DNA of 55,253 nt from Patescibacteria group bacterium (GTDB lineage: Bacteria; Patescibacteriota; Minisyncoccia; Phycocordibacterales; CAIRYW01): the NCBI GenBank assembly GCA_040389185.1, contig JAZKAJ010000017.1, positions 1-55,253 on the forward strand, given 5' to 3'. A model generated the notes under the pieces. The model was not told the origin of the DNA, did not search any database, and saw nothing but the letters and a program-made list of their open reading frames with translations. This document shows positions 8-55,253 of the stretch, one piece after another. Both the position numbers and the translations under genes were made by a program. Each line of letters starts with the position of its first letter. Within the stretch, counting starts at the first letter, position 1.

Positions 8-79
8 TGCACCCGGCAGGACTCGAACCTACAAAAACGGTTCCGAAGACCGTTGTGATATCCATTTCACCACGGGTGC
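8..79 (-). tRNA. tRNA-Arg(UCG), CCA not encoded
   Basis: Reverse strand folds as a cloverleaf: acceptor GCACCCG/CGGGTGC, D-stem GTGA/TCAC with A20, anticodon arm ACGGT-CTTCGGA-ACCGT, T-loop TTCGAGT, discriminator A. Confidence 0.95.
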
Positions 80-146: not shown

Positions 147-1631
147 ATGAAAAGCGACACTCTCATAATCCCAAAAGAGGTTTCACATGTAACAGAAACA
201 CTAGAAAACGCTGGTTTTGAAGCCTATTTGGTAGGAGGATGTGTTAGAGACATGCTCATAAACCGAAAGCCAAAAGACTGGGATGTGACTACCAATGCAA
301 CCCCGGAACAGATCGTTTCACTATTTCCAAACACTTTCTATGAGAACGACTACGGGACAGTAGGTGTTGTAAACGAAGAAGAGGGAATTGACCCGACACT
401 CAAGGTTGTAGAGATCACTCCGTACCGAATAGAAGGCAAGTATTCAAACAATAGACACCCAGATGAAGTAAAATGGAGCGACAACATCCTCGATGATCTT
501 GATAGAAGAGATTTTACTGTAAACGCTATAGCAATCCGGAGTAAAGACGGCAAGCATGCGATTGTAGATCCACACAACGGGCAACAAGATCTAAAGGACA
601 AACTCATAAAAACAGTAGGTAACCCTCACGAAAGATTTCAAGAAGATGGTCTCCGAATTCTCCGAGCTGTTCGAATCGCTACTGATTTAGATTTTATTAT
701 CGACCCTGCGACAGAAAAAGCGATAGTGGAGGAGGGACATTTGCTCAAAAACATTTCTGCAGAGCGAGTTCGAGACGAGTTTTCAAAGATTATATTGTCC
801 GATAGACCAGCGTTTGGGATACAACTCTGTGAAAAAACACAGATACTTCAATACTTTTTGCCAGAAATTCGAGATGGGATAGGGTGCGGACAGAACCAAG
901 CTCATGCATTTGATGTGTTTACACACCTTATGAAGACACTTGAACACTCTGCAAAGAAAAAATACACCTTCGAAGTACGACTTGCAGCTTTGTTTCACGA
1001 CATAGGGAAACCTGCGACAAAAAAACCTTCAACAAAGCGAGACGAGCCAACATTCTATGGACACGATGTAGTCGGAGCACGAATAACAGAGAAAATATTG
1101 AACAGACTTAAGTTTCCAAAGAAAACAATCGATATGGTTGTGAAACTCGTTCGTTGGCACATGTTCTTCTCTGATACGGAGACCATTACGCTTTCTGCGG
1201 TCCGTAGAATGATTCGAAATGTAGGTGAGGAAAATATATGGTACTTAATGGATGTGCGTACCTGTGACCGTATAGGGACAGGTAGACCTAAAGAAAGTCC
1301 ATATCGACTTCGTGTTTATCACTCAATGGTAGAAGAGGCAATGCGAAATCCAATTTCTGTTTCAACACTGAAGATTAATGGTGCTCGAGTTATTGAAATC
1401 ACCAAGATTCCTCCAGGACCCAAGATAGGGCAGATACTACTCATACTCCTTGAAGAAGCTCTAGATAATGCAGATATAAATACAGTTGAATATCTAGAGA
1501 AGAGAGCAGTGGAGCTTGCGGAGTTAGATGAAAAGGAATTGAAACTCTTTGGAGAGAAGGCAAAAGCCAAGAAAGAAGAGGTAGAGGGAAGTGAAATTGA
1601 AAAAATACGCAGTCGACACCACGTAAAATAA
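147..1631 (+). CDS. cca: CCA tRNA nucleotidyltransferase with HD domain
   Basis: Class II NTase motifs LVGGCVRD, DWDV, RRDFTVNA, EDGLRILRAVR; HD motif LFHDIGK. Confidence 0.9.
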   Translation: MKSDTLIIPKEVSHVTETLENAGFEAYLVGGCVRDMLINRKPKDWDVTTNATPEQIVSLFPNTFYENDYGTVGVVNEEEGIDPTLKVVEITPYRIEGKYSNNRHPDEVKWSDNILDDLDRRDFTVNAIAIRSKDGKHAIVDPHNGQQDLKDKLIKTVGNPHERFQEDGLRILRAVRIATDLDFIIDPATEKAIVEEGHLLKNISAERVRDEFSKIILSDRPAFGIQLCEKTQILQYFLPEIRDGIGCGQNQAHAFDVFTHLMKTLEHSAKKKYTFEVRLAALFHDIGKPATKKPSTKRDEPTFYGHDVVGARITEKILNRLKFPKKTIDMVVKLVRWHMFFSDTETITLSAVRRMIRNVGEENIWYLMDVRTCDRIGTGRPKESPYRLRVYHSMVEEAMRNPISVSTLKINGARVIEITKIPPGPKIGQILLILLEEALDNADINTVEYLEKRAVELAELDEKELKLFGEKAKAKKEEVEGSEIEKIRSRHHVK

Positions 1632-3812: not shown

Positions 3813-4736
3813 TTAATTCCCGCCCTTTGAATGAAACTTTTTGTGTATATCTCGAAGCTGAGAATCAGTGACGTGGGTGTAAATTTGAGTTGTTGCAATG
3901 TTTGCATGCCCTAAAAGCATCTGGACGGAACGGAGATCAGCACCGTTTCGAAGTAGATCTGTTGCAAAACAGTGTCGTATCACGTGAGGAGTAACTTTCT
4001 TAGATACTCCAGCTTTGATTGCATAGTGCTTAATAATCCTTTGAATCGAACGACTAGTGAGCGAAGCATCTTCTTTTTTGGCTCGTTCAAGACCAACTTT
4101 CACGAAAAGAGCATTATCCATATCTTTTCGGAGACTCAAATAGGTCTTAAGTATCGCTTTGGCTTCATCTGAGATGAATACTACTCGCACTTTACCTCCT
4201 TTTCCTCGAATAGAGAGTTCGTCTTGACGAAGATCAATATCTCGATCGAGTGCACAAAGCTCTGAAACTCGAAGTCCAGTAGAAAACAGAAGTTCCAAAA
4301 TAGCCTTGCCACGGGCTCTTTTTTCAAGATTTTCCTCATTATTTGGTGCTTCAAATATTCTCTTTAGTTCATCGGCAGAAATAAGATCGAGAGATCTTTC
4401 ACCAGTCTTTGCAAGCTCAATATAATCTGCAGGAAGGGTAGTAATACCTCTTTTGGCTATGAATTTGAGAAATGCTCGGAGAGCAATGAGATAATAGTTC
4501 TGAGTCTTCTTTTTCAAGGTCTCATTTGTTCTTCTATTATTTCCTGTAACCTGACGATTGAGCCACAGACGATACTCTCTCATTATTTCTGGAGTAATGT
4601 CTTTTGGATCGGTCTTTTTGAAGAATTCCAAAAAGCGGGTGAGATAGTGATCGTAATTCTCAACAGTCTTGAGACTGCGACCCTTTTCGATTTCAATGTG
4701 TTCAAGAAATTGTCTTTTAAGAGTGAGGAGGTCCAT
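3813..4736 (-). CDS. XerC/XerD-family tyrosine recombinase
   Basis: Catalytic set STGLRVSEL, RGKGGK, PHVIRHCFAT, LGH, TQIYTH; start moved to MDLLTLK (4736) because a TATAAT lies 7 nt upstream and the extension overlaps the opposite ORF. Confidence 0.92.
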   Translation of the reverse strand: MDLLTLKRQFLEHIEIEKGRSLKTVENYDHYLTRFLEFFKKTDPKDITPEIMREYRLWLNRQVTGNNRRTNETLKKKTQNYYLIALRAFLKFIAKRGITTLPADYIELAKTGERSLDLISADELKRIFEAPNNEENLEKRARGKAILELLFSTGLRVSELCALDRDIDLRQDELSIRGKGGKVRVVFISDEAKAILKTYLSLRKDMDNALFVKVGLERAKKEDASLTSRSIQRIIKHYAIKAGVSKKVTPHVIRHCFATDLLRNGADLRSVQMLLGHANIATTQIYTHVTDSQLRDIHKKFHSKGGN

Positions 4737-4842
4737 GGAATAAATTATATCAAAGATTTTAAAATAATGTCGCACAATATTTTGCTTTGATAAAAAATAT
4801 AAGAGGTATATAATTTGAGTATTAAAATAATCTGAAACATGT

Positions 4843-6888
4843 ATGCTTAATTGGCCACCAGATGACGAAACAAAAAAACTACCGAAAGCTGAGGATGGTG
4901 GGTTTGAAAATCCTAAAGATGGTTTAGGAAATACCAAAGAAGAGCAAGAGGTAATCGCTCAAAAAGCTGAGATTGATAGAGAATACAGAGAAATTGCAGA
5001 TCCAAATCTACCGGCCGCATCAGGTAGCGATCCTTTTTTTGAAAGACCTGAAATCAAACCATTAAAGAAAGAAACTTTGAGTGAGAAAATTGATGCCGCA
5101 AAACAAAAGGTTGAGGATGCAGCCAGAAGACTAAAAGTGTTGGCCTGGTTATCAAAGAAAAAAATAGAAGAAAAGGTAGAAGGTAGAAACCTATTTAAAA
5201 CAATGGAAGTATACGATGACGCAGAAATTGCACTCAGAAAGAAAACAAGAGAAATTGCCGAAAAATTAAATACTGATAAGAGTAGATATCACGAAGAAGA
5301 TCAATATGATGAACCAATCAAATCTGAACCAGAAACAGATGAACCTGAAATTTCTCCAGAGACTGCAACTACTTCTAAACCAGAAAAAGGCCTATTAGCG
5401 AAAATGGGGGGCAAAATTTCAACTGCCAAAGAACTGACTGGATTGCTCGCATCTGAGGGTGGAAAACCTGAGAACTTGGAAATTGAAACCGCAGAAATAC
5501 CCGACAATTTTTCTATTGATAATGGTGAATTAAAATTAGATGAGGAGCCCTCTATACCCACTACTGCACCCCATCCGGATACAACCCATGTTCATTCTGC
5601 GGGACCAGAACATCACCCCCATGCAGATGATCACGGTCATGCGTACGAACACCATAGACACGAAGCACATCTCGGGCACGACACTCATCACCTAGAGCAT
5701 GAACTTGAAGAATTAAAAAAACAACTCAAAGAACATCTTGAGTCTTTAACTTCATTCTTTTCAGGACTTAGCAAGAAAGATAAAGCAACAATTCTAAAGA
5801 TATTTGAAAAATTGTCACCTCATGGTGAAGAATTGTCTCCAGAAGAACTGCTTGTTTTCCTTGATGAATTAGACAAAGAAATGACAAGGCCAGGGAAATT
5901 AAATCCCGATGATGGACATTTGTATCATCCAGAAGAACTACCTGTTTCTCTTGATGAATTAGATAAAAACATGACAAGATCAGGAAGGTTAAATCTGAAT
6001 GCTGAAGATAGTCTAAAACTTTCAGATCTTGCGTGGAAAATAAAGCAGACCGCTCATTTGTTAATTCAAAAATATATTACAGTAGAAGCAACTTTTGAAG
6101 ATGATCCAGAAAATCTAGCAAAAATTAATAATATTGATAATGAGAGAAAGGAATCGAAAGAAAAGACGAAGATAAGTCTAGATGAATTGAAAGCTCAACT
6201 AGAAGACCCGAGTATTCCAAATAAAGAAGTATTCAGTAATGCTGTACTTAAGAAAATGTACACACATATACTAAATGATGCTGAGCAAAATGAAGAAAGT
6301 GTGAAGAAAGAAATTGAGGAGTACAAAAGGATAGTAGAAGAGAAAAGACAAAAACTATTAGAAGAAGGCGGGGTCTTGAAAGCAGCCAAGGAAGCCGCCG
6401 AAAATGCAATAAGAGAAAACATTGATCCCGCAGAAATCATCAGAACTTCGAAAGAATACAAAGAAACCAAAAAGAAGTTTGAGCGATCGACACTTCTCTT
6501 TGGCGCAGTTGAAATGCAATTAAAGGAAAAAGAAGATGCGCTTGGAACTATTGAAGGCTTGGTCAAACAAATTAGAGATAAAAAAGATGATATCGCCGCT
6601 TCAAATGTCTTGGCTGATACAGAAAAAATGATGAAGGAAGTAACCGAAGCTTCAGATAAAATTGAAAATGCAATAAAGCCAAGAGCTTCAACAAAACATG
6701 AACATGGGCATGAGCACCCTAAACCAAAGTGGGGATATACAATAGCGGGAGCGACTTTTTTCTTAGGACTTTTTAATATCTTTGTGGGCAAACTCTATGA
6801 TTCTCTTCGAGAGACATCAGCAGGAGGTGGACACGGAGGAGGTCATGGAGGTGGGCACAGTAAGAAGAAATCGAAAGATTCTCACTAA
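4843..6888 (+). CDS. Acidic coiled-coil protein with His-rich segments and a C-terminal TM helix
   Basis: 681-aa ORF; His-rich block HVHSAGPEHHPHADDHGHAYEHHRHEAHLGHDTHHLEH, duplicated 30-aa unit PEEL..LDELDK.MTR.G.LN, hydrophobic segment near the C-terminus, GGGH repeats. Confidence 0.75.
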   Translation: MLNWPPDDETKKLPKAEDGGFENPKDGLGNTKEEQEVIAQKAEIDREYREIADPNLPAASGSDPFFERPEIKPLKKETLSEKIDAAKQKVEDAARRLKVLAWLSKKKIEEKVEGRNLFKTMEVYDDAEIALRKKTREIAEKLNTDKSRYHEEDQYDEPIKSEPETDEPEISPETATTSKPEKGLLAKMGGKISTAKELTGLLASEGGKPENLEIETAEIPDNFSIDNGELKLDEEPSIPTTAPHPDTTHVHSAGPEHHPHADDHGHAYEHHRHEAHLGHDTHHLEHELEELKKQLKEHLESLTSFFSGLSKKDKATILKIFEKLSPHGEELSPEELLVFLDELDKEMTRPGKLNPDDGHLYHPEELPVSLDELDKNMTRSGRLNLNAEDSLKLSDLAWKIKQTAHLLIQKYITVEATFEDDPENLAKINNIDNERKESKEKTKISLDELKAQLEDPSIPNKEVFSNAVLKKMYTHILNDAEQNEESVKKEIEEYKRIVEEKRQKLLEEGGVLKAAKEAAENAIRENIDPAEIIRTSKEYKETKKKFERSTLLFGAVEMQLKEKEDALGTIEGLVKQIRDKKDDIAASNVLADTEKMMKEVTEASDKIENAIKPRASTKHEHGHEHPKPKWGYTIAGATFFLGLFNIFVGKLYDSLRETSAGGGHGGGHGGGHSKKKSKDSH

Positions 6889-53902: not shown

Positions 53903-53998
53903 ATGCCTATAGTATATAGTAAGTGATACTCAGTATAAAGTTTAAACAATTTATACAGTTCACTAGACGAATATATATTTTTGTGTAGTATTTTATGC

Positions 53999-54072
53999 AT
54001 ACGGCTAGCTTAAAGGTAAAGCGCTCCCCTTATACGGGAGAGACTAGGTGGTTCAATTCCATTTGCCGTATA
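53999..54072 (+). tRNA. tRNA-Ile(UAU) with non-canonical 6-bp T-stem
   Basis: Acceptor ATACGGC/GCCGTAT, D-stem GCTT/AAGC, anticodon arm CTCCC-CTTATAC-GGGAG, T-arm AGGTGG-TTCAATT-CCATTT, discriminator A; no CCA. Confidence 0.85.
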
Positions 54073-54073
54073 T

Positions 54074-54487
54074 ATGAAAACACTTCTTTTAAGCTGTAAA
54101 AACTTTGGATCAAAGATCAAGAAACTCGCCACTAGACCCGGGACTGTTAAGCCTGAGGTAATGAAACAGAAAGAGTACGCTGCAGAGAAATCAATCGTTG
54201 TGCTCATAAACGTAGAGATTGGAGACAATATTAAAGATCTATCAGGAAAATTGGCAGATGAAATAAGGATCTTCTCCAAGGATACAAATATTAAAACTAT
54301 TGTTTTGTATCCTTTTGGGCATCTATCAAATAAACTAGCTTCGAGTGAAGATACGGTTGAGTTTTTGGATTTACTTGAAAAAGAATTGGCTGATTTTGAA
54401 ACAATCCGAGTGCATTTTGGTTCGCACAAATCTTTATTACTTGATATTCATGGACATAAAGGAAATGTGAGATTTAGAGAGTTTTAA
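54074..54487 (+). CDS. Free-standing archaeal-type threonyl-tRNA synthetase editing domain (DTD-like fold)
   Basis: VVLINVE.GD, IVLYPFGHLSNKLAS, RVHFGSHK and IHGH align by eye with archaeal ThrRS N-terminal motifs YP[FY]AHLS..LA, APFG.YK and KGH. Confidence 0.78.
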   Translation: MKTLLLSCKNFGSKIKKLATRPGTVKPEVMKQKEYAAEKSIVVLINVEIGDNIKDLSGKLADEIRIFSKDTNIKTIVLYPFGHLSNKLASSEDTVEFLDLLEKELADFETIRVHFGSHKSLLLDIHGHKGNVRFREF

Positions 54488-54661: not shown

Positions 54662-54690
54662 TTGACAAATAAGTGGGGGTATGCTAATAT
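54662..54690 (+). promoter_or_regulatory. Strong sigma70-type promoter
   Basis: TTGACA(54662)-17-TAATAT(54685) with extended TGn. Confidence 0.75.
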
Positions 54691-55090
54691 TATCTCACTG
54701 TTCGTTAAAGACCCCGAAAGATACGAATCTTCAATAATTAAGATTCTGCATCATCTATGCAGTTTCGACGCTATAAATCTCTAAGCAATGGGACAATTTA
54801 TTGTCTTTTGATATTGTTTAAAGGACGCTTTGGTTTGCCTAGTCTTCACTGAAGCCATCCTCAGAACACTATTTTACTTTTAATCTAGCATTAAAAGTAT
54901 TGCTCAGAGATTTATATAGTCGAATCTCTCTTGGAACAGAATTGAATCTATATTCAGTATACCCCTCTATGCTCGTTTGTAATCTTTACGAAAAAAGATT
55001 TTTAGGTTGTATTTTCGACCTCTTCGTTTGGTATTGTTAAAGTAATAATTATAAAATCCCTCAACTATATTTTTGAAAGAAAGGATAATA

Positions 55091-55192
55091 ATGTACTTAA
55101 TAGAAAACTCTAATAACGGATACCAAACGAAGGGAAAGAAAAAAATCGATTTAAAAATATGGATTTATGGTTTAGGAATATATACAAAATGA
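55091..55192 (+). CDS. Possible 33-aa peptide MYLIENSNNGYQTKGKKKIDLKIWIYGLGIYTK
   Basis: AAAGGA 6-7 nt upstream of ATG; stop overlaps the terminator. Could be a chance ORF. Confidence 0.3.
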   Translation: MYLIENSNNGYQTKGKKKIDLKIWIYGLGIYTK

Positions 55193-55218
55193 GCGACGCC
55201 GCAGGCGTCGCTCATTTT
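55186..55218. terminator. GC-rich intrinsic terminator
   Basis: AAAATGAGCGACGCC-GCA-GGCGTCGCTCATTTT. Confidence 0.85.
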
Positions 55219-55253
55219 CTTATTCATAAATCTTGAATCGTAAATCCTATGCC

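What the first reader, a model, noticed from the sequence alone, without database searches (positions are those of the whole stretch)
53999..54487. Non-canonical tRNA-Ile(UAU) joined to a free-standing archaeal-type ThrRS editing domain: candidate tRNA/trans-editing module
Seen: a 74-nt cloverleaf with anticodon UAU, a 7-bp acceptor and a 6-bp T-stem (AGGTGG/CCATTT, two G-U pairs). It has C38 and the E. coli tRNA-Ile determinants C4-G69, U12-A23, C29-G41, A37 and A73. One nucleotide after the discriminator an ATG opens a 137-aa ORF with archaeal ThrRS editing-domain motifs (YPFGHLS, FGSHK, GH). The segment after GH reads KGNV where the archaeal domain typically reads PLAE. Established: most bacteria read AUA with TilS-modified tRNA-Ile(CAU), and UAU anticodons are rare (Mycoplasma mobile is a known case). 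The archaeal editing domain has a DTD-like fold, clears Ser-tRNA-Thr, and occurs free-standing in some archaea. Inference: the pair is one transcript, and tRNA 3' processing would leave a near-leaderless mRNA for the editor. The protein may be a dedicated deacylase for this tRNA; UAU is one base from Thr UGU, and the altered pocket hints at a new substrate. A mistranslation or code-tuning module is an alternative. I do not know of a described system like this.
Basis: partly seen in the sequence, partly recalled or inferred. Interest (0 to 1): 0.82.

Follow-up and report, generated by a model that had tools for sequence, protein, structure and literature searches.

The report
tRNA-Ile(UAU) plus stand-alone editing-domain cassette
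In a lineage of ultrasmall (Patescibacteria/CPR) bacteria, an oddly shaped isoleucine tRNA and a small stand-alone copy of the archaeal threonyl-tRNA-synthetase proofreading domain are inherited as one tightly joined unit, most likely because cutting out the tRNA creates the leaderless message from which the proofreading protein is made.

Summary
Window 53999-54072 is a tRNA with anticodon UAU, a 7-bp acceptor stem and a 6-bp T stem. One base later, a 137-aa ORF (54074-54487) is a high-confidence structural twin of the archaeal ThrRS N-terminal editing domain.

The pairing is not chance. In about 18 distinct loci from other metagenomes, a tRNA(UAU) of the same unusual family lies 1-10 nt (usually 4) before the start codon of the orthologous ORF, while the flanking genes differ. 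These proteins form one clade. A -10 box sits 6-7 nt before tRNA base 1. The window's genes lack Shine-Dalgarno sites and look leaderless.

Best reading: one promoter drives tRNA plus mRNA, and tRNA 3' processing releases a near-leaderless editor mRNA.

The idea that the protein is a dedicated deacylase for this tRNA is unproven and partly contradicted:
- Most of the protein family (DPANN archaea, other CPR) has no linked tRNA.
- One lineage keeps an intact ORF behind a decayed tRNA.
- Active-site residues do not differ between linked and unlinked members.
- AUA still reads as Ile.

This is a new variant of known kinds and is moderately to highly interesting.

The parts
53964..53991 (+). Promoter-like element: -35 TAGACG (53964-53969), 16-nt spacer, -10 TAGTAT (53986-53991). 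The -10 ends 7 nt before tRNA base A1, so the inferred transcription start is at or next to A1.
   Evidence: Read from the sequence. A -10-like hexamer ends 6-7 nt before A1 in 16 of 17 homologous loci. Other tRNAs in the same loci have -10 boxes at variable, mostly larger distances. The generic scan instead lists TTTATA-18-TATATT ending at 53979, so the exact start is inferred, not shown.
53999..54072 (+). Non-canonical tRNA-Ile(UAU). It has A1-U72, a 7-bp acceptor stem, a 6-bp T stem, anticodon loop CUUAUAC, discriminator A73 and no encoded CCA.
   Evidence: ARAGORN; Rfam 43.5 bits; MFE cloverleaf. Family alignment A4: 97.9% of cells paired, 14 of 22 pairs with compensatory changes, 0 of 500 shuffles as good. 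The family covariance model scores it 81.6 bits.
54073..54073 (+). Single-base spacer (T) between discriminator A73 and the start codon. It is 4 nt in 14 of the 18 loci (CCA+N, CAA+N, CCC+T and similar), 3 nt in L068 and 10 nt in L007.
54074..54487 (+). 137-aa free-standing archaeal-type ThrRS N-terminal editing domain (DTD-like fold). It has no Shine-Dalgarno site and no promoter of its own.
   Evidence: ORF; Pfam PF08915 E=1.7e-19; PDB sequence hits; AF2 pLDDT 92.4; Foldseek TM 0.91-0.92 to 1y2q/3pd4/4rrf; 39 mostly 137-aa homologs. NCBIfam matches only the N-terminal 129 positions of the archaeal ThrRS and Ser-tRNA(Thr) hydrolase models.

Best explanation
This is a conserved two-gene expression cassette of a Patescibacteria (CPR) lineage.

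Proposed mechanism:
1. A single sigma-70-type promoter starts transcription at or next to base A1 of an unusual tRNA-Ile(UAU) paralog, so the tRNA has no 5' leader (inferred).
2. The tRNA is followed after 1-10 nt (typically CCA-like plus one base) by the AUG of a 137-aa stand-alone editing domain of the archaeal ThrRS type (shown).
3. Genes in this genome lack Shine-Dalgarno sites and mostly appear to be translated from leaderless mRNAs (inferred from sequence).
4. The editor's AUG therefore becomes usable only when the tRNA's 3' end is cut. RNase Z-type cleavage after A73, or exonucleolytic trimming where CCA is encoded, would do this. It releases the tRNA and an mRNA with a 1-4-nt 5' end (inferred).
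5. The tRNA is completed by the CCA-adding enzyme encoded at window 147-1631.

The protein is a trans-acting aminoacyl-tRNA deacylase of the ThrRS-NTD type. It keeps the Pro-Phe-x-His and Lys elements of the catalytic pocket. It has His or Asp for Tyr120 and Val or Ala for Glu134, plus a family-specific C-terminal GN[VA]R[FY]RE[FY] motif. Its most likely substrate is a small hydroxy-aminoacyl-tRNA such as Ser-tRNAThr (inferred from family membership).

Selection on the editor's expression is sufficient to explain the tight tRNA-ORF linkage. A further biochemical relationship between the protein and this tRNA is possible but not required by the data.
For: Identity of both parts.

Linkage:
- The same tRNA family lies directly 5' of the orthologous ORF in the window, L031, L037, L038, L030, L001, L029, L039, L002, L032, L041, L040, L042, L033/34, L007 and L068.
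- It is also there in L089-92. These loci were not used to build the model and score 95 bits with a 4-nt spacer.
- Flanking genes differ between loci.
- The linked proteins form one clade.
- The covariance model finds this tRNA nowhere else in 0.47 Mb of fetched DNA.

Single transcript and leaderless logic:
- A -10 box ends 6-7 nt before A1 in 16 of 17 loci.
- There is no -10 box or SD between the tRNA and the ATG.
- Only 1 of 32 window genes shows an SD-like motif, and -10-like hexamers peak at 6 nt before the ATG (11 genes against about 2 expected per position).
- Unlinked bacterial orthologs (L003, L004, L016-18) carry their own -10 box 6-10 nt before the ATG. The archaeal ones have a TATA-like peak at -28. 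The editor mRNA therefore looks leaderless everywhere, and in the linked clade the tRNA's 3' end occupies the promoter's place.
- L035/36 keep the promoter, a perfect 7-bp acceptor helix, the 4-nt spacer and an intact ORF, although the anticodon and T arms have decayed.

Enzyme: P80, F81, H83 and K119 are invariant. Their roles in PabNTD are described in PMC4491819.
Against: - There is no RNA evidence at all. Only DNA runs hold the locus, and groundwater metatranscriptomes gave nothing.
- The transcription start, the cleavage site and leaderless translation are all inferred from sequence geometry.
- Pure expression coupling does not explain why the anticodon loop CUUAUAC is kept in 14 of 16 members while all five anticodon-stem pairs covary.
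- It also does not explain why the odd acceptor sequence AUGCGGG and the extra T-stem nucleotide are so conserved.
- The ThrRS of these genomes could not be examined, so the Ser-tRNAThr role is only a family-based guess.
- The pocket substitutions (Y120H/D, E134V/A) affect residues that are strictly conserved in archaeal NTDs.
Confidence: 0.5

Rival explanations
1. Dedicated quality-control pair. The stand-alone editing domain specifically deacylates mis-acylated forms of the linked non-canonical tRNA(UAU), or otherwise acts on its aminoacyl end. The two are co-inherited because they work together.
For: - The pair is co-inherited across proteins diverged to about 42% identity, in changing neighbourhoods.
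- The tRNA is a distinct paralog with an invariant A1-U72/U2-A71/C4-G69 acceptor, A73 and a conserved UAU loop, which suggests it is charged and recognised.
- There is a precedent: free-standing tRNA-Thr-ED genes coupled to tRNACys/SepCysS genes were proposed to edit Ser-tRNACys in trans (PMC5424206).
- DTD-fold paralogs such as ATD have repeatedly been recruited to new tRNA errors (PMC5802732, listed).
- The pocket is altered at the Tyr120 and Glu134 equivalents.
Against: - Most of the family has no linked tRNA: about 40 loci from DPANN archaea and other CPR.
- Catalytic and pocket residues are the same in linked and unlinked members.
- The ORF is intact behind a decayed tRNA in L035/36, seen in two independent assemblies.
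- L004 and L067, inside the clade, lack the tRNA.
- A 137-aa domain has no anticodon-binding module to give tRNA specificity.
Confidence: 0.2
2. tRNA-like leader or mimic. In many lineages the linked element is no longer a decoder. It is a tRNA-shaped 5' UTR that controls the editor's expression. It could act as an operator bound by the editor itself, by IleRS or by processing enzymes, in the manner of the tRNA-like operator of E. coli thrS. Alternatively it is a non-proteinogenic tRNA kept away from the ribosome.
For: - Eleven of 16 members lack G18G19, and 6 have UGC in place of T54-Psi55-C56. The same losses mark the non-proteinogenic tRNAGly of S. aureus (PMC4574755).
- Rfam's tRNA model and/or ARAGORN miss several members.
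- L033 carries a second, canonical tRNA-Ile(UAU) 4 kb away, scoring 60 bits.
- Two members have U37 instead of A37.
Against: - The window's own copy has G18G19 and a canonical TTCAATT T loop, and passes Rfam.
- The UAU anticodon loop and all four stems are under purifying or compensatory selection. A mere operator or processing signal would not need that.
- The element sits in tRNA clusters in L089 and L040 like an ordinary tRNA gene.
Confidence: 0.12
3. Mobile accessory cassette. The tRNA(UAU) plus editor travels horizontally among CPR lineages as cargo that boosts AUA decoding and adds a proofreading factor. Adjacency would then reflect joint transfer rather than joint function.
For: - The distribution is sporadic: 28 loci among 185,579 species genomes with the patterns used.
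- Serine recombinases, a relaxase, a TrwB-like coupling protein or a transposase lie close by in L029, L032, L033 and L035.
- Saccharibacteria carry members of two different clades: L007 is linked, while L014 and L016-18 are not.
- The family is shared between DPANN archaea and CPR.
Against: - In the window and L031 the cassette sits among core genes (ruvC, ruvB, tyrS/trpS, PBP1, dnaA/dnaN) with no mobile gene adjacent.
- There is no repeat of the tRNA's 3' end in the window.
- There are no hits in IMG/VR viral contigs.
- Mobility would not explain the fixed 4-nt spacing.
Confidence: 0.1
4. Chance adjacency in a compact genome, with no coupling of any kind.
For: About 3-4% of genes in a small genome lie just downstream of a tRNA (an estimate from general knowledge of such genomes, not from a tool result). 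Three unlinked-clade loci have other tRNAs nearby: L014 Lys(UUU), L079 tRNA(CAU) and L073 Gln.
Against: The same tRNA family occurs with the same spacing in about 18 distinct loci with different neighbours.
Confidence: 0.03

Closest known systems
N-terminal editing domain of archaeal ThrRS (Pfam PF08915; PabNTD, MjNTD, ApNTD), and the crenarchaeal free-standing ThrRS-ED / Ser-tRNA(Thr) hydrolase
   Same: Same fold (TM 0.84-0.92) and same HMM family. The Pro-Phe-x-His motif and the Lys121 equivalent are conserved.
   Different: - It is only 137 aa. It is not fused to a synthetase body and lacks the anticodon-binding part of the 387-aa crenarchaeal hydrolase (NCBIfam models are matched over their first ~125-130 positions only).
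- It is found in bacteria (CPR) as well as DPANN archaea.
- Tyr119/Tyr120 are replaced by Ser/His (or Asp), and Glu134 by Val/Ala.
- It has its own invariant C-terminal GN[VA]R[FY]RE[FY]. In the profile search, full-length ThrRS proteins match positions 1-129 only.
Free-standing tRNA-Thr-ED genes coupled with tRNACys and SepCysS genes in Euryarchaeota and MSBL1/Hadesarchaea (Mukai et al. 2017, PMC5424206)
   Same: A small stand-alone PF08915 protein genetically associated with a non-Thr tRNA gene. It was proposed to be a trans-editing factor for that tRNA.
   Different: The partner tRNA here is Ile(UAU), not Cys, and there is no SepRS/SepCysS context. The hosts are bacteria. The junction is fixed at 1-10 nt and the tRNA itself is non-canonical.
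tRNA-Ile(UAU) AUA-decoding system of Mycoplasma mobile and other tilS-less bacteria (PMC3575796)
   Same: A bacterial tRNA-Ile gene with a TAT anticodon. The genome is AUA-rich (21.9 per 1000 codons, 27% of Ile codons).
   Different: - The linked tRNA has an extra T-stem nucleotide, giving a 6-bp or bulged stem.
- Two thirds of its relatives have lost the G18G19/U55 elbow contacts.
- At least one genome also has a canonical tRNA-Ile(UAU).
- The presence or absence of tilS could not be checked.
tRNA punctuation of mitochondrial transcripts, and bacterial tRNA-mRNA co-transcripts such as the E. coli thrU-tyrU-glyT-thrT-tufB operon (from general knowledge)
   Same: A tRNA and an mRNA are made as one transcript. 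Excision of the tRNA defines the mRNA's 5' end. In mitochondria the resulting mRNAs are leaderless.
   Different: Here this would be a single conserved tRNA-mRNA pair in a free-living-type bacterial chromosome, with the transcription start apparently at tRNA position 1. It has not been shown experimentally.
Non-proteinogenic tRNAGly of Staphylococcus (PMC4574755), and tRNAPyl/tRNASec as special-purpose tRNAs
   Same: The G18G19 and U55 elbow nucleotides are lost in most family members. The window and L031 copies have a 13-bp acceptor/T-arm stack, as in tRNASec.
   Different: There is no evidence of a non-ribosomal use. The anticodon and AUA reading look ordinary.

Membership tests
Archaeal-type ThrRS editing domain (PF08915, DTD-like fold) | Sequence match to the family HMM above the curated threshold | tested here: met
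   70.7 bits against a cut-off of 30.2, E=1.7e-19, covering profile positions 1-128 of 137
Archaeal-type ThrRS editing domain (PF08915, DTD-like fold) | Three-dimensional fold superposable on solved NTDs | tested here: met
   AF2 pLDDT 92.4. TM 0.91-0.92, rmsd 1.3-1.4 A to 1y2q/3pd4/4rrf. DTD and ATD reach only TM 0.6-0.69.
Archaeal-type ThrRS editing domain (PF08915, DTD-like fold) | Pocket residues Pro80, Phe81, His83 and Lys121 (PabNTD numbering) | tested here: met
   P80, F81, H83 and K119 are invariant in 34 sequences. Alignment to Pab and Mj; residue roles in PMC4491819.
Archaeal-type ThrRS editing domain (PF08915, DTD-like fold) | Strictly conserved Tyr120 and cross-subunit Glu134 | tested here: not met
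   Tyr120 is replaced by His118 (Asp in the P0022 subclade). Glu134 is replaced by Val132/Ala. Both residues are dispensable for activity in PabNTD (PMC4491819).
Archaeal-type ThrRS editing domain (PF08915, DTD-like fold) | Part of a ThrRS, or of the crenarchaeal ThrRS-ED protein with an anticodon-binding domain | tested here: not met
   It is a 137-aa stand-alone ORF. NCBIfam PRK03991 and PRK14938 are matched over their first ~125-130 positions only, far below their cut-offs. The best ~65 cluster representatives are fragments or stand-alone proteins of 63-215 aa, mostly 125-145 aa.
Archaeal-type ThrRS editing domain (PF08915, DTD-like fold) | Hydrolysis of Ser-tRNAThr but not Thr-tRNAThr | not testable with these tools
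   Needs a deacylation assay
tRNA (Rfam RF00005), elongator tRNA-Ile | Cloverleaf detected by tRNA models | tested here: met
   ARAGORN; Rfam 43.5 bits. In relatives the same element is often missed.
tRNA (Rfam RF00005), elongator tRNA-Ile | Helices supported by compensatory changes | tested here: met
   14 of 22 pairs have changes on both sides, 97.9% of cells are paired, and 0 of 500 shuffles do as well
tRNA (Rfam RF00005), elongator tRNA-Ile | Canonical 7/5 acceptor/T-stem geometry | tested here: not met
   The T stem is 6 bp in the window and L031, with covariation between them. The other 14 members have a bulged extra nucleotide.
tRNA (Rfam RF00005), elongator tRNA-Ile | Elbow nucleotides G18, G19, U55 and C56 | tested here: inconclusive
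   They are present in the window copy. G18G19 is absent in 11 of 16 relatives, and U55 is replaced in 8 of 16.
tRNA (Rfam RF00005), elongator tRNA-Ile | Ile identity set (anticodon, A37, A73, C4-G69, U12-A23) and charging by IleRS | tested here: inconclusive
   The sequence elements are present and mostly invariant. Aminoacylation cannot be tested here.
tRNA (Rfam RF00005), elongator tRNA-Ile | Sole AUA decoder in a tilS-less genome (M. mobile type) | not testable with these tools
   Only 55 kb of the genome is available and it holds no tilS or ileS. L033 has a second, canonical tRNA-Ile(UAU).
Leaderless mRNA generated by tRNA excision (tRNA punctuation) | No SD and no own promoter; AUG within a few nt of the tRNA's 3' end | tested here: met
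   The spacer is 1-10 nt in all 18 loci.
Leaderless mRNA generated by tRNA excision (tRNA punctuation) | Mapped co-transcript and processed 5' end | tested here: inconclusive
   No RNA data hold the locus
Anti-phage defence or type III toxin-antitoxin (RNA gene plus protein gene) | Match to known defence proteins; repeated antitoxin RNA | tested here: not met
   PADLOC gave no hit. The element is a single tRNA-like unit, not a repeat array.

The most novel reading that the evidence does not exclude
The odd tRNA(UAU) and the stand-alone editing domain would be a true functional pair. The tRNA's unusual geometry includes an extra T-stem nucleotide, an invariant AUGCGGG acceptor and a weakened elbow. 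This geometry would make the tRNA prone to a particular mis-acylation, or would direct it to a special use. The editor has a remodelled pocket (Tyr120 to His/Asp, Glu134 to Val, and a new C-terminal Asn/Arg motif). It would have been recruited to clear that error, or to handle that aminoacyl-tRNA. This would be a bacterial analogue of ATD or of the proposed Ser-tRNACys editor, guarding AUA decoding.
Probability: 0.2. Interest if true: 0.85.

Novelty: new variant of a known kind. Interest (0 to 1): 0.62.

Why it matters
- It would add a bacterial branch to the story of DTD-fold proofreading factors. A minimal 137-aa ThrRS-type editing domain is shared by CPR bacteria and DPANN archaea.
- It may be a rare bacterial case in which excision of a tRNA creates a translatable leaderless mRNA, as in mitochondria.
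- It defines a new family of non-canonical tRNA-Ile(UAU) genes that standard tRNA finders partly miss. It also shows that gene callers wrongly extend the downstream ORF into the tRNA.
- If the protein does act on the linked tRNA, the pair would be a compact, testable system for how new tRNA species and new proofreading activities co-evolve.

Tried and rejected
- AUA recoding or 'code tuning': rejected. The 49 ATA codons in linked-clade editor genes align with I 39%, V 24% and L 10%.
- Phage or viral origin: no relative in IMG/VR.
- Integration-site remnant: no second copy of the tRNA's 3' end in the window.
- Defence system: PADLOC gave no hit.
- RNA evidence: only DNA runs hold the window locus. 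RNA runs from the study that yielded L007 hold nothing. No runs were found for L001.
The obvious test, whether the host ThrRS lacks its own editing domain, could therefore not be run.
- Literature: no paper was found that links CPR/Patescibacteria with ThrRS editing domains, tRNA-Ile(UAU) or tilS, or leaderless translation.
- Cell-wall or D-amino-acid genes near several loci suggested a DTD-like role. These were a racemase, Ddl, VanY-type M15 peptidase and MurB. I judged the association too weak to use.
- Rare TGA stops (3 of 45 ORFs): judged unremarkable.
Full report
**What is in the window.**
ARAGORN finds two tRNAs in the 55-kb window. One is tRNA-Ile with anticodon TAT at 53999-54072 on the + strand. 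Rfam's tRNA model scores it 43.5 bits. That is above the gathering score of 29 but well below the 63.4 bits of the window's tRNA-Arg. On its own the RNA folds into a cloverleaf with a 7-bp acceptor stem, a 4-bp D stem and a 6-bp T stem AGGUGG/CCAUUU. C4-G69, U12-A23, C29-G41, A37, C38 and A73 can be read from the sequence. There is no encoded CCA, and a CCA-adding enzyme is encoded at 147-1631.

One base after A73, the ATG at 54074 opens a 137-aa ORF. It is the first possible start in its frame. The ORF evidence is as follows:
- It matches Pfam PF08915 (tRNA-Thr_ED) at E=1.7e-19.
- It matches the solved editing domains of P. abyssi, M. jannaschii and A. pernix ThrRS by sequence.
- An AlphaFold2 model (pLDDT 92.4, pTM 0.87) superposes on those structures at TM 0.84-0.92 and rmsd 1.3-2.1 A.
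- DTD and ATD, the other members of the fold, reach only TM 0.6-0.69.

**Genomic setting.**
The closest homolog (98% identity) is annotated as coming from a 'Patescibacteria group bacterium'. The window is ordinary chromosome. It encodes dnaA, dnaN, yidC, jag, PBP1, a class-I Tyr/Trp synthetase, ruvC, ruvB, PNPase, uvrD and ksgA. It also carries the type IV secretion-like cluster that a published study describes for Patescibacteria (PMC12102498, listed). It holds no thrS, ileS or tilS.

**Is the pairing conserved?**
I collected loci that encode relatives of the ORF from several sources:
- species-representative genomes (28 loci);
- JGI metagenomes (52 loci);
- the contigs of individual homologs.

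A tRNA(UAU) of one recognisable family lies immediately 5' of the ORF in the window, L031, L037, L038, L030, L001, L029, L039, L002, L032, L041, L040, L042, L033/34, L007 and L068. It typically reads AUGCGGG...CUUAUAC...CCCGCAUA. A covariance model built from those 16 sequences also finds it at 95 bits in the four L089-92 contigs of homolog P0022, which were not used to build the model.

The spacer between the discriminator and the ATG is 4 nt in 14 of the 18 distinct loci. It reads CCA+N in three loci and otherwise CAA+N, CCC+T and similar. It is 1 nt in the window, 3 nt in L068 and 10 nt in L007.

The neighbouring genes differ from locus to locus:
- ruvB in the window and L031;
- fur/secA in L030;
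- a TrwB-like coupling protein in L029;
- radC and a relaxase in L032;
- a serine recombinase in L033 and L035;
- tRNA-Glu, tRNA-Ser and a DPRP-family protein in L089.

In a neighbour-joining tree the linked proteins form one clade. Outside it, about 40 loci from DPANN archaea and other CPR lineages have no such tRNA. Three of these have a different tRNA nearby: Lys(UUU)+CCA 7 nt upstream in L014, an intron-containing tRNA(CAU) 2 nt upstream in L079, and Gln 46 nt upstream in L073. That is about what chance gives in small genomes. The model finds the linked tRNA family nowhere else in the 0.47 Mb searched.

**The tRNA is a distinct, non-canonical paralog.**
On the 16-member alignment the cloverleaf holds in 97.9% of cells. 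Fourteen of 22 pairs show compensatory changes, and no shuffle of 500 does as well. Several features are invariant: A1-U72, U2-A71, C4-G69, U12-A23 and A73. The anticodon loop is CUUAUAC in 12 of 16. It is CUUAUAU in two (38C to U) and CUUAUUC in two (U37).

The 5' strand of the T stem always carries one extra nucleotide. It is bulged in 14 members. In the window and L031 it is paired by an extra 3' nucleotide, giving 6 bp, and the two copies covary there.

Eleven of 16 lack G18G19. Six have UGC where T54-Psi55-C56 should be, and the two losses go together. ARAGORN and/or Rfam miss the element in L002, L029, L033/34 and L039. The same elbow losses characterise the non-proteinogenic tRNAGly species of S. 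aureus (PMC4574755).

L033 also carries a second, fully canonical tRNA-Ile(UAU) 4 kb downstream, with G1-C72 and a 60-bit score. The linked copy is therefore not necessarily the cell's AUA decoder. The window's own copy keeps G18G19 and a canonical T loop.

In L035/36, seen in two independent assemblies, the element has lost the 3' half of the anticodon arm and its T stem. It keeps the promoter, a perfect 7-bp acceptor helix and the 4-nt spacer, and the ORF behind it is intact.

**Expression logic.**
A -10-like hexamer (TAnnnT, at least 4 of 6 matches) ends exactly 6 or 7 nt before tRNA base A1 in 16 of 17 loci. In several loci a TTGCAA-type -35 lies 17 nt upstream of it. In the window the elements are TAGTAT at 53986-53991 and TAGACG at 53964-53969. 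Other tRNAs in the same loci have -10 boxes at variable, mostly larger distances. The transcript therefore probably starts at A1, which would also explain the A1-U72 pair. The generic promoter scan prefers a box ending at 53979, so this start site is an inference.

There is no -10 box and no Shine-Dalgarno sequence between the tRNA and the ATG. More tellingly, only 1 of 32 window genes shows an SD-like motif. The -10-like hexamers also pile up 6 nt before start codons, in 11 genes against a background of about 2 per position. This is the signature of leaderless mRNAs. Internal operon genes overlap or abut the preceding stop codon.

Unlinked bacterial orthologs of the editor (L003, L004, L016-18) carry their own -10 box 6-10 nt before the ATG. 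The archaeal ones have a TATA-like peak at -28. The editor mRNA thus looks leaderless everywhere. In the linked clade the place of the promoter is taken by the 3' end of the tRNA.

The simplest mechanism is that cleavage at the tRNA's 3' end produces the 5'-proximal AUG that this organism's ribosomes need. The cleavage would be RNase Z-type after A73 where CCA is not encoded. Such an arrangement is self-preserving. An insertion between the two genes, or loss of the tRNA's promoter, would silence the editor. That can explain the conserved junction, the retained acceptor helix in L035/36, and the replacement of the tRNA by an ordinary leaderless promoter in L004. No transcriptome data were available to test any of this.

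**The protein.**
In PabNTD seven side chains lie within 6 A of the scissile bond: Pro80, Phe81, Ala82, His83, Tyr120 and Lys121, plus Glu134 from the other subunit. Tyr120 and Glu134 are dispensable for activity, and the Ser hydroxyl is fixed by the main chain at Lys121 (PMC4491819).

In the 34-sequence alignment P80, F81, H83 and K119 (equivalent to Lys121) are invariant. Tyr119/Tyr120 are Ser117 and His118, with Asp in the P0022 subclade. Glu134 aligns with Val132/Ala. The C terminus is an invariant GN[VA]R[FY]RE[FY] motif.

A profile search of 1.8 billion cluster representatives finds 769 relatives. The best ~65 are fragments or stand-alone proteins of 63-215 aa, mostly 125-145 aa. Full-length ThrRS proteins appear only from E of about 1e-16, and they match profile positions 1-129, not the C-terminal motif. 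NCBIfam matches only the N-terminal part of the archaeal ThrRS model and of the crenarchaeal Ser-tRNA(Thr) hydrolase model, far below their cut-offs.

This is therefore a distinct stand-alone subfamily, shared by DPANN archaea and some CPR bacteria, with the catalytic frame of a Ser-tRNAThr deacylase and a modified pocket. Linked and unlinked members do not differ at these positions.

**Function of the pair.**
Three points favour this:
- the long co-inheritance of the pair;
- the conserved anticodon loop and acceptor stem of an otherwise drifting tRNA;
- a published precedent, in which small tRNA-Thr-ED genes are coupled with tRNACys and SepCysS genes in Euryarchaeota and were proposed to edit Ser-tRNACys in trans (PMC5424206).

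Four points count against it:
- the many unlinked family members;
- the identical pocket in linked and unlinked members;
- the intact ORF behind a decayed tRNA in L035/36;
- the loss of the tRNA in L004 and L067 inside the clade.

AUA is not reassigned. ATA codons in the linked-clade genes fall in I (39%), V (24%) and L (10%) columns. AUA is also common in the window, at 21.9 per 1000 codons.

I could not check whether the host ThrRS lacks an editing domain. That would be the obvious reason to keep a trans-editor.

**Verdict.**
The finding is real, and the tRNA-ORF unit is conserved. I rate the explanations as follows:
- expression coupling through tRNA processing in a leaderless-translation organism: about 0.5;
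- a dedicated tRNA/editor functional pair: about 0.2;
- the element acting as a tRNA-like leader or non-proteinogenic tRNA: about 0.12;
- a mobile cassette: about 0.1;
- chance adjacency: about 0.03.

Each part belongs to a known kind, namely the ThrRS-type editing domain, tRNA-Ile(UAU) and tRNA-mRNA co-transcripts. I did not find the combination described in the literature searches: a non-canonical tRNA paralog fixed a few bases before a minimal stand-alone editing domain in bacteria.

Noticed in passing
window 54662-55220 (+), and L031 about 5590-6200: A strong promoter (TTGACA-17-TAATAT with an upstream TG) is followed by about 500 nt without an ORF. Between the window and L031 this stretch is more conserved than the adjacent protein gene. 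It has long near-identical blocks, variable hairpin-like segments, a 13-nt long-range complement (CTTCGTTTGGTAT / ATACCAAACGAAG) and, in the window, a terminator hairpin at 55186-55218. Rfam finds nothing even at E<=1. It is likely an undescribed structured RNA.
   Followed up: partly
whole window: Genes lack Shine-Dalgarno motifs (1 of 32). Many have a -10 box 6-8 nt before the ATG (a peak of 11 genes at 6 nt). This suggests that leaderless mRNAs are the default in this Patescibacteria genome. No paper linking Patescibacteria with leaderless translation was found.
   Followed up: partly
L033 9142-9216, 1769-1856 and 1956-2043: The same scaffold that carries a linked, degenerate tRNA(UAU) also has a canonical tRNA-Ile(UAU). 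It further has a divergent pair of tRNA-Ser genes, one called with the unusual anticodon ACT.
   Followed up: partly
L079 2901-2998 and 3001-3420: A tRNA(CAU) with an insertion in the anticodon loop that looks like an intron ends 2 nt before an editing-domain gene of the unlinked clade. That gene has an apparent frameshift in an A-run. Whether the tRNA is Met or Ile2 (an AUA decoder) was not resolved.
   Followed up: partly
L014 2917-2993: A canonical tRNA-Lys(UUU) with encoded CCA ends 7 nt before an editing-domain gene in a Saccharibacteria MAG. This tRNA-ORF junction is independent of the UAU family.
   Followed up: no
L009, L011, L056, L057, L059, L062, L080, L081 (25-50 nt upstream of the ORF): A conserved motif GTTAAGTGAAATTGCCTTTCGCCCTT precedes the editing-domain gene in a subclade whose MAGs are labelled Falkowbacteria, Gammaproteobacteria and others. 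It is followed by a TATA-like AAACTTAATAAA at about -28. Rfam finds nothing there. The promoter style suggests these contigs may be archaeal and mis-binned.
   Followed up: partly
L029 10575-16701 and L032 5545-9859: A conserved cluster lies convergent to the cassette. It comprises a VanY-type M15 peptidase, an amino-acid permease, a 254-aa fragment weakly matching the AlaRS catalytic domain, and a 440-aa protein of unknown function. L029 also has a stand-alone B3_4 (PheRS-beta editing-like) protein and a YqcI/YcgG protein.
   Followed up: no
proteins P0021, P0024, P0028, P0040: Gene callers extended the editing-domain ORF upstream into the tRNA, giving spurious N-termini such as 'VAQLVEH...' and 'MRCKPHPAY'. 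This is an annotation artefact that hides the tRNA.
   Followed up: yes
window 8-79 (-) and 3813-4937 (-): A tyrosine integrase gene lies about 4 kb from tRNA-Arg(TCG) at the window's left edge. This may be an integrated element. It is unrelated to the finding.
   Followed up: no
L043 1107-1234 and 1475-1574: Two long tRNA-like hits (128 and 100 nt), possibly intron-containing tRNAs that ARAGORN missed, flank a tRNA-Asp just downstream of an unlinked editing-domain gene.
   Followed up: no
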